Virus record (IMG/VR): IMGVR_UViG_2877263951_000005
DNA length: 41,232 nucleotides
Source of the DNA: a virus
Taxonomy: Duplodnaviria > Heunggongvirae > Uroviricota > Caudoviricetes
Strand: one strand, 5' to 3'
Shown here: one piece after another, positions 13,231 to 13,807 of the stretch
Layout: the number at the start of each line of letters is the position of its first letter
Position numbering within the stretch: the first letter of the stretch is position 1
Made by a program: the position numbers and the translations under genes
The notes under the pieces: generated by a model
Database searches by the model: none
What the model saw: the letters and a program-made list of their open reading frames with translations, nothing else
Told to the model about the DNA's origin: nothing

Positions 13231-13372
13231 AACTTAAAGTTAACTTAAAGACACAATTAAAGATTAACTTATAGTATTACTTAAAGTTAACTTAAAGACA
13301 CAATTAGAGATTAACTTTAAGTATTAAATAAAAGATTTAATTAAAGACCAATTAAAGATTAACTCTAAGGGA
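13231..13372 (+). repeat. AT-rich direct repeats built on CTTAAAG motifs
   Basis: ACTTAAAGTTAACTTAAAGACACAATTAAAGATTAACTT at 13232 and again at 13280 (48-bp period), third partial copy near 13340. Confidence 0.85.
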
Positions 13373-13419
13373 ATACCTTAAGGGGTGATGATATTTATAA
13401 TAATCAATCACCAAACCTA

Positions 13420-13646
13420 TAGGTCTTCTCTAGGGTCTCTCTATAGGTCTTCTCTATGGTCTCTCTATAGGTCTCTCTAGGGTCTCCTCTAGGCATTACC
13501 CCCAGAAGCTAACTCTATGGCCCTCTATGGTCCTCTATGGTCCTCTATGGCCCTGTACGTCATTCTTTAGGATGCCCTGTAGTTTCGTATAGCCTGATGC
13601 CTAGAGAGACCCTAGAGAGACCCTAGAGTGGCTCCTAGAGAGACCC
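13420..13646 (+). repeat. iteron-like arrays in inverted arrangement
   Basis: GGTCTCTCTAGGG-type repeats at 13420-13492, four CTCTATGGNCC repeats at 13514-13555, and CCCTAGAGAGACC repeats (reverse complement of the first array) at 13600-13646. Confidence 0.85.
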
Positions 13647-13807
13647 TCCCAGTAGCTCCGCACAGCTACATCGTCATCATCATAGTATTCAATCTCAAAG
13701 TCATTCTGTTTGCATCCTGTTGTCCTGCTGGTCTCCCTTCGCTTGGGGACTTTGAGTAGGTCAGTGGGGGTGCGACTTCAGGGTGCAAACAAAAAGGAAA
13801 TCAAGCG

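What the first reader, a model, noticed from the sequence alone, without database searches (positions are those of the whole stretch)
13231..13650. Repeat arrays resembling a T7-type origin or packaging region
There are two 48-bp-period AT-rich direct repeats and a third partial copy, then two arrays of about 12-bp iterons in inverted orientation flanking four CTCTATGGNCC repeats. The arrangement is origin-like and pac-like rather than coding, and lies between the T7 promoter and the first downstream gene.
Basis: partly seen in the sequence, partly recalled or inferred. Interest (0 to 1): 0.6.

Follow-up and report, generated by a model that had tools for sequence, protein, structure and literature searches.

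The report
T7-wired mini-island control region
The repeats are real and lie in the non-coding control region of a tiny mobile island in a Shigella chromosome; the island copies the promoter, a replication-origin-like stretch and a genome-junction signal of T7-type phages, so it is probably switched on, and perhaps copied and spread, by those phages.

Summary
The repeats exist as described. They are not in a phage genome. They lie in an 883-bp non-coding region of a decayed copy (IS1-truncated, no attR) of a roughly 4-7 kb island that integrates into tRNA-Gly. The island occurs in 218 of 5426 E. coli genomes and in Klebsiella, Citrobacter, Serratia, Pectobacterium, Morganella and others.

Downstream of the integrase, family members carry promoters for T7-group RNA polymerases. 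These vary with host genus, and Klebsiella copies hold three kinds in tandem. An AT-rich ACTTAAAG array follows in most copies read; its best match in T7 is the primary replication origin.

Inside the integrase gene is a 20-nt exact copy of the T7 concatemer-junction boundary (end of the terminal repeat plus the ATCTGTT pause signal).

The 10-12-bp iterons vary in copy number between lineages, are missing from minimal members, and have no counterpart in T7-type phage ends.

Best reading (about 0.5): a phagemid-like satellite of T7-group phages. Main rival (about 0.3): a defence island that senses infection; some members carry the anti-T7 gene RAZR/PD-T7-4. The pac idea for the iterons is not. 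I found no published description.

The parts
11183..11205 (+). attL core: 3' end of a prophage-borne tRNA-Gly(tcc) gene (11131-11205). It differs at 3 of 23 positions from the family's usual core TTCGATTCCCTTCGCCCGCTCCA.
   Evidence: In relatives the 23-bp core is repeated 4.15-7.3 kb downstream as attR. No attR is present in the window.
11320..12924 (+). Tyrosine integrase, 534 aa (Phage_integrase domain plus N-terminal DUF6538).
   Evidence: Pfam hit at 1.2e-17. It is 99% identical to a Shigella flexneri protein cluster of 769 members, and relatives of 82-97% identity occur in many Enterobacterales.
11835..11854 (+). 20-nt exact copy of the T7 concatemer-junction boundary CTCTGTGTCCCT|ATCTGTTA (T7 nt 149-168). 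It comprises the last 12 nt of the terminal repeat plus the class II T7 RNA polymerase pause signal, embedded in the integrase linker where it encodes SVSLSV.
   Evidence: it is the only exact match to T7 longer than 14 nt besides the promoter. The 19-mer occurs in IMG/VR in 43 stretches from T7-size contigs (41 of about 39-42 kb, two shorter) and in 3 copies of this island, and nowhere else.
12962..13048 (+). Promoter unit, present in 1-3 tandem copies in relatives. It contains the perfect T7 class III promoter at 13012-13034 with +1 at 13029.
   Evidence: three copies in L024.
13029..13060 (+). Predicted 5' stem-loop of the T7 RNA polymerase transcript (GGGAGAAGGGAC...GUUUUCUCUUCU).
   Evidence: MFE fold. 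L009 has a different sequence that, by my reading, keeps the pairing.
13068..13185 (+). Ultra-conserved leader (AACCGTAACTTATCGCATCCTTTCAGGGGCGGGATGACCA ... GGTCAGTCGATAAGTGAATAG), a candidate structured RNA or single-stranded DNA element.
   Evidence: A 26-mer is identical in E. coli, Klebsiella, Morganella and Edaphovirga copies. Three pairs show compensatory changes. There is no Rfam match.
13229..13375 (+). AT-rich array (76% A+T): a 47-nt unit x2.9 built from 11-12-nt (N)ACTTAAAG sub-units. Candidate T7-type origin initiation and unwinding region.
13384..13412 (.). Hairpin or palindrome GGTGAT-N17-ATCACC.
   Evidence: Conserved in E. coli and Klebsiella copies. The same arm pair occurs once in 309 kb of T7-type phage sequence, in T7 at 39328, downstream of phiOR and 609 nt left of the junction. 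Absent from minimal members.
13417..13491 (+). Iteron array A, CTCTA(TA/G/T)GGTCT x6.
   Evidence: There are 7 units in another Shigella copy, 9 or more in L003, and 1 in FT130 and L001.
13513..13554 (+). Iteron array B, CTCTATGG(C/T)C x4.
   Evidence: There are 3 units in another Shigella copy, and a CTGTATGGCC variant in FT130.
13600..13647 (-). Iteron array C, the reverse complement of array A, x4.
   Evidence: There are 3 units in another Shigella copy and a single unit in FT130 and L001.
13697..13807 (+). Conserved 5' leader directly upstream of the first downstream gene, with a predicted long stem-loop.
   Evidence: The same block precedes KilA-N, Rha and other genes in E. coli, Klebsiella, Pectobacterium and RIT691. 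Fold. No sigma-70-like promoter lies in front of the gene.
13808..13989 (+). 5' part of a Rha-family regulator gene with a QQP repeat, cut by an IS1 insertion (IS1 at 13990-14758).
   Evidence: Pfam Phage_pRha at 7.6e-10. IS1 copies. The intact homologue is 234 aa in L003.

Best explanation
The flagged repeats are part of the cis-acting control region of a small island (about 4-7 kb) that integrates into tRNA-Gly and is wired to virulent T7-group phages. My proposed mechanism is as follows. When such a phage infects, its RNA polymerase fires from the island's perfect phage promoter(s). The transcript runs through a conserved structured leader into the AT-rich ACTTAAAG array. As at T7's own origins (a promoter followed by AT-rich DNA), the transcript primes DNA synthesis by the phage replisome, so the island is amplified into concatemers. 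On circular or concatemeric copies the same transcription continues through the KilA-N/Rha gene and att into the integrase gene. There it meets an exact copy of the T7 junction boundary, which holds the RNA polymerase pause signal and the right-end cut site. That motif would give the terminase a processing site, so multimers of about 40 kb could be packaged and the integrase could insert them in a new host. In short, the island would be a natural 'phagemid', a satellite with no replication or packaging genes of its own. What is shown: the promoters, the origin-like composition and sequence, the junction motif, the att sites, and the family distribution. What is inferred: amplification, excision, packaging and transfer. 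The 10-12-bp iterons are an accessory, expandable inverted-repeat module and not a core part of the mechanism.
For: 1. Perfect T7 promoter. It matches 23 of 23 positions and is unique in the window. All family members examined carry phage-type promoters on the same strand after the integrase, and the type changes with host genus. Klebsiella copies hold K11-type, T7-type and Przondovirus-type promoters in tandem. The last equals the left-end (phiOL-position) promoter of Klebsiella phage Whistle.
2. No sigma-70-like promoter lies upstream of the downstream gene.
3. Origin-likeness. The AT-rich array's best T7 match is the primary origin, followed by the AT-rich stretches after phiOL and phi6.5. 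Shuffles give 0 of 1000 reaching the observed value. The only non-promoter matches to 46 T7-type phage sequences are ACTTAAAG arrays downstream of phiOL, the position of the primary origin, and phi6.5.
4. Junction motif. There is a 20-nt exact match to the T7 terminal-repeat boundary plus pause site, in the same orientation as the promoters. It is conserved in E. coli, Klebsiella, Pectobacterium and RIT691 copies. The 19-mer is otherwise found only in contigs of T7-like genome size.
5. Mobility. 23-bp att repeats bound units of 4.15-7.3 kb at tRNA-Gly(ccc). The window copy sits in a different, prophage-borne tRNA-Gly. The island is present in 218 of 5426 E. coli genomes and in many genera.
6. 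No replication or packaging proteins are encoded.
7. Laboratory precedent. T7 replicates, packages and transduces plasmids that carry a T7 origin, pac site and terminal repeat (PMC13236587, citing Chung and Hinkle 1990).
8. A Kluyvera member copies the GCACGTT repeats that flank the right-end promoter of Pseudomonas T7-like phages.
Against: 1. No excised, circular or concatemeric form was found, and no copy in virome contigs apart from predicted prophages of Shigella isolates.
2. Only the right boundary of the terminal repeat is copied. There is no terminal-repeat homology and no left-end TCTCACAGT motif.
3. The AT-rich array starts about 200 nt after +1, whereas in T7 it follows the promoter directly.
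4. Part of the k-mer similarity reflects AT-richness. For the genome-wide maximum, the most extreme of 200 shuffles scored 27 against the observed 26.
5. The junction motif lies in a protein-conserved island of the integrase (SLSV), so amino-acid constraint could explain part of its conservation. Its codon identity is above average but not extreme.
6. Many members carry RAZR/PD-T7-4, which aborts T7 infection on sensing the portal. That would also hurt a satellite that depends on T7 capsids.
7. No excisionase was identified.
8. The window copy is decayed (IS1-truncated, no attR).
Confidence: 0.5

Rival explanations
1. Infection-sensing defence island. The phage-specific promoters act only as sensors, so that a KilA-N/Rha-type protein and small variable cargo proteins (for example a 97-aa membrane protein) are made only when a T7-group RNA polymerase is present. 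These products abort or disturb the infection. The AT-rich array would silence leaky expression (H-NS-type binding) or raise gene dosage. The junction motif would act as a decoy or transcription stop. The island would spread by other routes.
For: Many family members carry RAZR/PD-T7-4, a proven anti-T7/T3 abortive-infection gene, directly overlapping the integrase gene (PMC9519451 and PMC13017515). Cargo downstream of the promoters varies, as in defence hotspots: KilA-N, Rha, Bro-N, DUF6971, DUF4236 and unknown proteins of 157 and 375-381 aa. Tandem promoters of several specificities would widen a sensor. There is no packaging evidence.
Against: A sensor alone does not need an origin-like array that recurs across several genera, nor a 20-nt copy of the terminal-repeat boundary, of which only 7-8 nt are needed for polymerase pausing (my knowledge of class II signals). 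RAZR lies upstream of the phage promoters and works from its own promoter, so it does not explain them. None of the promoter-driven proteins matches a known defence family convincingly (best hit PD-T4-2_B at 4e-5).
Confidence: 0.3
2. Remnant of a temperate T7-like prophage that has lost everything except its integrase and a piece of its genome-end and early region.
For: T7-like promoters, AT-rich leader sequences and a terminal-repeat boundary motif are all native parts of T7-group genomes. The window copy is visibly decayed.
Against: Intact att sites bound compact units of 4.15-7.3 kb with the same architecture across many genera. No T7 structural or replication gene fragment was found in any member. 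Promoters of several different phage specificities sit side by side, which no single phage has. The junction motif is inside an intact integrase ORF.
Confidence: 0.05
3. Iteron-type autonomous origin. The 10-12-bp repeats bind the island's own KilA-N/Rha protein, which acts as an initiator next to an AT-rich unwinding element, as in iteron plasmids.
For: Direct and inverted short repeats lie next to an AT-rich block and a DNA-binding protein gene.
Against: Iterons are absent from minimal members that keep the same gene (leader-to-ATG distance of 427 nt in L009, L043, L051 and L053). Klebsiella Rha-type members have none. Copy number differs between two Shigella copies. The units are shorter than typical plasmid iterons, and no Rep, primase or helicase is encoded. 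No copy occurs on plasmids.
Confidence: 0.05

Closest known systems
Bacteriophage T7 replication origins: the primary origin (phi1.1A/1.1B plus an AT-rich region) and the secondary promoter-plus-AT-rich origins
   Same: A T7 RNA polymerase promoter (two in tandem in many relatives, as in T7) reads into an AT-rich block. The block shares TTAACTTTAAG/ATTAGAGATT-type words with T7 nt 5921-6020.
   Different: The AT-rich block starts about 200 nt after +1, behind a conserved structured leader. It is built as a 47-nt tandem repeat. It sits in a bacterial island. Activity is untested.
T7 concatemer junction and T7 phagemids (Chung and Hinkle plasmids carrying a T7 origin plus the junction)
   Same: The same logic of cis-elements only. 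There is an exact 20-nt copy of the terminal-repeat right boundary with the ATCTGTT pause signal, oriented with the promoters (PMC13236587).
   Different: There is no terminal-repeat homology and no left-end motif. The motif is embedded in a coding sequence about 2.9 kb downstream of the promoter on a circular map. The element is natural, integrative and tRNA-targeted.
Minimal phage satellites (PICI, P4-like, PLE, PICMI)
   Same: Integrase plus a tRNA att site, small size, anti-phage cargo in some members, and apparent dependence on a specific helper group.
   Different: There is no primase or replication initiator, no AlpA, and no capsid-size or terminase-redirecting genes. The presumed helpers are virulent T7-group podophages. 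Induction would go through the helper's own RNA polymerase promoter. At about 4.2 kb it is smaller than described satellites (my knowledge).
RAZR / PD-T7-4 locus (Vassallo et al. 2022; Nature 2026)
   Same: The same integrase family. [quoted passage not shown] The DUF4145 gene of L012 and, by Pfam annotation, L009 is this system (L012 scanned: 2e-101).
   Different: The window copy has no RAZR gene. The accessible papers do not mention the T7 promoters, the AT-rich array or the junction motif.

Membership tests
T7-type replication origin | T7-group RNA polymerase promoter reading toward the AT-rich region | tested here: met
   Perfect promoter at 13012-13034 on the + strand, upstream of the array. 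Relatives have 1-3 copies.
T7-type replication origin | AT-rich block of 60 bp or more directly downstream of the promoter | tested here: inconclusive
   The block is 147-162 nt long with 76% A+T. It begins about 200 nt after +1, whereas in T7 it begins within about 10 nt.
T7-type replication origin | Sequence resemblance to known T7 origin AT-rich regions beyond base composition | tested here: met
   Best window in T7 is 5921-6020. The array shares 25 7-mers with it against 7.7 +/- 3.5 in dinucleotide shuffles, 0 of 1000 reaching it. For the genome-wide maximum the observed value is 26 against 11.9 +/- 2.9, and the shuffle maximum is 27.
T7-type replication origin | Origin activity with T7 RNA polymerase, DNA polymerase, gp4 and gp2.5 | not testable with these tools
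   This needs in vivo plasmid amplification or an in vitro reconstitution.
T7 concatemer junction / pac region | Right boundary of the terminal repeat with the class II pause signal (…CTCTGTGTCCCT|ATCTGTT) | tested here: met
   Exact 20-mer at 11835-11854, outside the flagged interval. The 19-mer is otherwise confined to contigs of T7-like genome size in IMG/VR.
T7 concatemer junction / pac region | Terminal repeat of about 160-250 bp with the conserved left end TCTCACAGT | tested here: not met
   No homology to the terminal repeat upstream of the motif. Left-end pattern: 18 hits against 16 expected, none convincing.
T7 concatemer junction / pac region | Short-repeat arrays next to the junction that match those of a helper phage | tested here: not met
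   No CTATGGTC/CTAGGGTC arrays occur in 46 T7-type phage sequences or in IMG/VR. The one exception in another family member is the set of GCACGTT repeats in a Kluyvera copy, which match Pseudomonas T7-like right ends.
T7 concatemer junction / pac region | Defined pacB/pacC sequences bound by the terminase | not testable with these tools
   The defining papers (Chung and Hinkle 1990; Fujisawa laboratory) are not in the library. Only their existence is cited.
Phage satellite | Integrase with att sites bounding a discrete element | tested here: met
   The window copy keeps only attL.
Phage satellite | Own replication initiator, or genes that redirect packaging | tested here: not met
   None found with Pfam, PHROGs or PADLOC.
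Phage satellite | Helper-dependent excision, replication and packaging | not testable with these tools
   No attP, circular or concatemer contigs were found. No virome copies were found other than in predicted prophages of isolates.
Iteron-type plasmid origin | Conserved iterons bound by a cognate Rep encoded next to them | tested here: not met
   Iterons vary in number or are absent within the family. No Rep is encoded. No copy is on a plasmid.
RAZR/PD-T7-4 defence locus | DUF4145/HEPN gene with a zinc-finger domain next to the integrase | tested here: not met
   The gene is absent from the window copy, where the integrase stop is followed directly by the promoter unit. It is present in relatives: L012 scanned at 2e-101, and Pfam DUF4145 annotated in L009, L010 and L013.

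The most novel reading that the evidence does not exclude
This would be a widespread family of protein-minimal satellites ('natural phagemids') of virulent T7-group phages in Enterobacterales. They would carry only an integrase and small cargo, and would obtain induction, replication and packaging purely by copying the helper's promoter, origin and concatemer-junction signals. Tandem promoters of different specificities would let one island exploit several phage genera. Some members also deliver anti-phage genes such as RAZR.
Probability: 0.45. Interest if true: 0.9.

Novelty: new variant of a known kind. Interest (0 to 1): 0.8.

Why it matters
T7 is one of the best-studied phages, yet to my knowledge no natural satellite has been reported for T7-group phages, and bacterial chromosomes are generally assumed to lack T7 promoters. 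A mobile island would therefore be a new and very economical way to parasitise or sense a virulent phage if it does the following:
- carries perfect promoters for T7-group polymerases, with the promoter type varying by host genus;
- has an origin-like array and an exact copy of the junction boundary;
- depends on the phage's own polymerase as the trigger.

Three further consequences follow.
- It would place the known anti-T7 system RAZR in its genetic context.
- It matters for phage therapy with T7-like Klebsiella and E. coli phages, through interference or transduction.
- It matters for T7-expression hosts, because an island-bearing strain would fire these promoters.

The idea is directly testable with standard T7 genetics.

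Tried and rejected
1. BLAST of the region against 50,697 phage records found only a promoter match in Salmonella phage Vi06. A sensitive blastn against T7 found nothing alignable beyond the promoter. There is therefore no long homology to any phage end.
2. Primase-site idea. The iterons contain GGGTC/TGGTC, which are T7 gp4 recognition pentamers (my knowledge). Their strands are inconsistent with a single fork model: plus- and minus-strand arrays occur on both sides of the promoters in relatives. The iterons are also dispensable. I rejected this as a core function.
3. Iterons as binding sites for the downstream protein. Rha-type Klebsiella members have none. Rejected.
4. Integrase arm sites. 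The arrays lie more than 1.7 kb from the att core. Rejected by position.
5. Iteron arrays in phages. Two IMG/VR pattern scans found only the island itself and one unrelated 58-kb contig. A motif-density scan around 23 phage junctions found one conserved promoter-like CTATAGGTC after phiOL and no arrays.
6. A search for circular or concatemeric copies in ENA/Logan contigs of about 4.2 kb and in JGI metagenomes found only chromosomal fragments.
7. An Rfam scan of 10500-14500 returned only tRNAs.
8. No left-end TCTCACAGT mimic was found.
9. A scan for one Citrobacter promoter type in IMG/VR gave no hit.
10. Ten literature searches found no description of these cis-elements (one further attempt failed on a term-length error).
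Full report
**Observation.**
- Tandem Repeats Finder reports a 47-nt AT-rich repeat at 13229-13364: 2.9 copies, 86% matches, score 200. It is built from 11-12-nt units ending in TTAAAG.
- It also reports a 12-nt array CTATAGGTCTCT x6.2 at 13417-13491, CTCTATGGCC x4.2 at 13513-13554, and CCTAGAGAGAC x4.3 at 13600-13647. The last is the reverse complement of the first iteron type (one search agrees).
- The two outer arrays pair into a long hairpin (RNA MFE -122.7 kcal/mol, z -7.5).
- A perfect 23/23 T7 class III promoter lies at 13012-13034. It is the only one in the window, with none expected by chance.
- The first downstream gene with family support starts at 13808.

**Where it sits.** The window is not a T7-like genome.
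- It is a Shigella-type chromosome segment full of IS copies, including IS1 at 13990-14758, with lambdoid prophage remains.
- Upstream of the region lie four tRNA genes, ending in tRNA-Gly(tcc) at 11131-11205. A 534-aa tyrosine integrase follows at 11320-12924. It is 99% identical to a Shigella flexneri protein cluster.
- Downstream, a Rha-family gene at 13808 is cut by IS1.
- The same integrase and non-coding region occur in 218 of 5426 complete E. coli genomes, always chromosomal and never on plasmids. In the five annotated E. coli copies I read, they lie next to actS and tRNA-Gly.
- There, a 23-bp direct repeat of the tRNA 3' end (TTCGATTCCCTTCGCCCGCTCCA) bounds units of 4.15-4.28 kb. Units reach 6.4-7.3 kb where extra genes are present.
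- The smallest units hold only four things: the integrase, about 1 kb of non-coding DNA, a KilA-N or Rha-type gene, and one small ORF.
- The integrase family is spread over Klebsiella, Citrobacter, Raoultella, Serratia, Yersinia, Pectobacterium, Lonsdalea, Morganella, Kluyvera and Edaphovirga.
- The window copy is integrated in a different, prophage-borne tRNA-Gly whose core differs at 3 of 23 positions. It has lost its right part and its attR.

**Phage promoters are the family's hallmark.**
- In every member I examined, promoters for T7-group single-subunit RNA polymerases follow the integrase on the same strand. Their type changes with the host.
- E. coli and Shigella copies have 1-3 copies of the exact T7 consensus.
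- Klebsiella copies have a K11-type, a T7-type and an AATTAGGTAGCACTATAGGGAGAC-type promoter in tandem. The last is the left-end (phiOL-position) promoter of Klebsiella phage Whistle, a Przondovirus.
- The Kluyvera copy has an ICP3-type and a T3-like promoter.
- The Citrobacter copy has three further variants. Lonsdalea, Pectobacterium, Edaphovirga and Morganella copies have their own.
- No sigma-70-like promoter precedes the downstream gene.
- This pattern can hardly arise without selection for transcription by infecting phages.

**The AT-rich repeat is origin-like.** T7 origins consist of a T7 promoter followed by AT-rich DNA in which the transcript primes DNA synthesis. This is established knowledge (Romano et al. 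1981; Fuller and Richardson 1985).
- Scanning the whole T7 genome, the window that shares most 7-mers with 13229-13375 is 5921-6020. That is the AT-rich part of the primary origin after phi1.1A/B. The next-best windows are the left-end repeats and the AT-rich leaders after phi6.5, phiOL and phiOR.
- A local alignment with the origin scores 38 against 15 +/- 3.5 for random T7 windows.
- Against dinucleotide shuffles of the repeat, the overlap with the origin is 25 versus 7.7 +/- 3.5, with 0 of 1000 reaching it. The genome-wide maximum is 26 versus 11.9 +/- 2.9, but the most extreme of 200 shuffles scored 27, so the excess over composition is real but moderate.
- Against 46 T7-type phage sequences, the only non-promoter matches of the family's non-coding DNA are ACTTAAAG arrays. 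These lie after phiOL, at about 5.7-6.0 kb from the left end (where T7 has its primary origin), and after phi6.5.
- An AT-rich ACTTAAAG or CCTAAAG array is present after the promoters in E. coli, Klebsiella, RIT691 and Kluyvera copies. The Morganella and Edaphovirga copies do not show an ACTTAAAG array in the 160 nt after the leader.
- One difference from T7: the array starts about 200 nt after +1, behind a conserved leader.

**A concatemer-junction motif, but elsewhere.**
- Comparing the whole window with T7 on both strands, the only exact matches longer than 14 nt are the promoter and a 20-mer at 11835-11854, CTCTGTGTCCCTATCTGTTA, equal to T7 nt 149-168.
- In T7 this spans the right boundary of the 160-bp terminal repeat. 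The genome ends ...CTCTGTGTCCCT. The ATCTGTT that follows is the class II pause signal for T7 RNA polymerase, which is implicated in concatemer processing (my knowledge: Lyakhov et al. 1997-98; Zhang and Studier 2004).
- Klebsiella phage Whistle has the same sequence at its repeat boundary.
- By my calculation, a shared 20-mer is expected about 2e-4 times by chance.
- In 2.9 million IMG/VR contigs the 19-mer occurs in 46 stretches. Forty-three are in contigs of T7-like size (41 of about 39-42 kb, two shorter), mostly 130-190 nt from the contig start. The other three are Shigella copies of this island.
- The motif lies in the integrase ORF, on the same strand as the promoters. It encodes SVSLSV in an otherwise variable linker.
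- It is kept in E. coli, Klebsiella, Pectobacterium and RIT691 copies, weakened in some others, and absent from the Kluyvera and Citrobacter copies that carry non-T7 promoters.
- Its codon identity is 0.64-0.87 against a gene mean of 0.58. That is suggestive of nucleotide-level constraint but not decisive.
- There is no homology to the rest of the terminal repeat and no left-end motif.

**The iterons are accessory.**
- Arrays A, B and C differ by one unit each between two Shigella copies.
- A and C are single units in the FT130 and L001 types.
- L003 has array A with at least nine units but no array C, and carries other repeats instead (GCTCAGTTTTGAGC, CACCACTAG).
- FT130 has further arrays: GATGACCATAGGC x13 after the integrase stop, CCTATGTGGT x4, and AATCAATACG x3.
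- Minimal members (L009, L043, L051, L053; 427 nt from leader to start codon) and Klebsiella members have none.
- No such arrays exist in T7-type phage ends or in IMG/VR.
- I therefore read them as variable-number repeats in a tolerant spacer. A and C expanded in parallel from an ancestral short inverted repeat, perhaps selected as a hairpin or cruciform.
- The GGTGAT-N17-ATCACC palindrome at 13384-13412 is more conserved, being shared by E. coli and Klebsiella copies. Its arm pair occurs only once in 309 kb of T7-type sequence, in T7 at 39328, downstream of phiOR and 609 nt left of the junction. This is suggestive but was noticed after the fact.

**Other conserved blocks.**
- The leader at 13068-13185 is more conserved than the integrase. 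An identical 26-mer occurs from Shigella to Morganella and Edaphovirga. It folds into a multi-helix structure with three compensatory pairs, though these reflect few independent events. It has no Rfam match.
- A second conserved block at 13697-13807 precedes whatever gene comes first.

**Genes.**
- The first promoter-driven gene is most often a KilA-N, Rha or related DNA-binding protein. The divergent Morganella and Edaphovirga copies, and one metagenome copy, begin with other small ORFs. Further cargo varies.
- The DUF4145 gene that overlaps the integrase stop in many members is PD-T7-4 (2e-101). It has been renamed RAZR: a HEPN RNase that aborts T7 and T3 infection when it senses the portal (PMC13017515).
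- Vassallo et al. noted that it 'often overlaps an integrase gene' (PMC9519451).
- The window copy lacks it.
- Neither paper mentions the promoters, the array or the junction motif.

**Mechanism.**
- The shown facts fit a phagemid-like satellite. The phage polymerase fires the promoter, and the transcript primes phage-replisome synthesis in the AT-rich array.
- On circular or concatemeric copies, transcription then runs round into the integrase gene, pauses at the junction copy, and offers the terminase a right-end site.
- T7 is known to replicate, package and transduce plasmids that carry just an origin, pac site and terminal repeat (PMC13236587).
- Amplification, excision, packaging and transfer are all inferred.
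- Evidence against this reading: no free or packaged forms were found, the terminal-repeat mimicry is incomplete, and RAZR is present in some members.
- The main rival is a defence island that uses phage promoters purely as infection sensors. A decayed T7-like prophage and an iteron-type origin are unlikely, for the reasons given in the rival entries.

**Novelty.** Ten literature searches of PMC and bioRxiv found no description of a T7-group satellite or of these cis-elements. The library is incomplete, so prior description cannot be excluded.

Noticed in passing
window 13068-13185 (also L012 8465-8600, L019 9405-9540, L023 9459-9560): An ultra-conserved leader of about 115 nt lies between the phage promoter and the AT-rich array. 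It includes a 26-mer identical across genera and folds into a multi-helix structure with three compensatory pairs. It has no Rfam family, so it is a candidate new structured RNA made only by phage polymerase.
   Followed up: partly
window 13814-13864: A perfect CAACAACCA x5.7 repeat encodes (QQP)n at the N-terminus of the Rha-type protein. Another Shigella copy (L025) has fewer units, so this is a coding variable-number repeat.
   Followed up: partly
L012 8260-8830; L014 9261-9840; L021 8900-9075: Tandem promoters of different phage specificities sit in one island: K11-type, T7-type and Przondovirus-type in Klebsiella, and three unmatched variants in Citrobacter braakii. One Citrobacter variant has no exact match in IMG/VR.
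   Followed up: partly
L020 9045-9140: The Kluyvera island has GCACGTT repeats flanking a T3-like promoter. A 34-nt stretch is 97% identical to the segment just after the terminase gene, in the right-end region, of Pseudomonas phage Stalingrad and relatives.
   Followed up: partly
L033 (IMGVR_UViG_3300021255_004097) 150-460: An unrelated 58.8-kb viral contig carries CCCTCTATGGCC x6, the same unit as array B, embedded in repeats of about 59 nt. The meaning is unknown.
   Followed up: no
window 10895-11205: A compact cluster of four tRNA genes (Met-cat, Arg-tct, Thr-tgt, Gly-tcc) lies in a lambdoid (Stx-phage-like) prophage remnant. The island used its tRNA-Gly as a secondary attachment site.
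   Followed up: partly
window 37737-37949: A 60-nt tandem repeat x3.5 (75% matches) lies inside a 571-aa ORF on the minus strand (36576-38291). It was not examined.
   Followed up: no
window 8913-9527, 14759-15058, 28112-28726, 39480-40094; 6300-7071, 13990-14761, 23163-23933, 30939-31710: There are four copies of one IS element and four copies of IS1, in both orientations. There are also near-identical prophage segments duplicated about 32.7 kb apart (48-347 and 32713-33012). The region is heavily rearranged.
   Followed up: no
L016 6702-7847; L012 10701-11828; L003 15841-16962: A conserved cargo protein of 373-381 aa next to a DUF6971 protein has no Pfam, PHROG or PADLOC match. Its function is unknown.
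   Followed up: partly
L019 12343-12430: In Morganella, the attR core is followed by about 60 nt nearly identical to the sequence after attL. This may be a remnant of a tandem second copy.
   Followed up: partly
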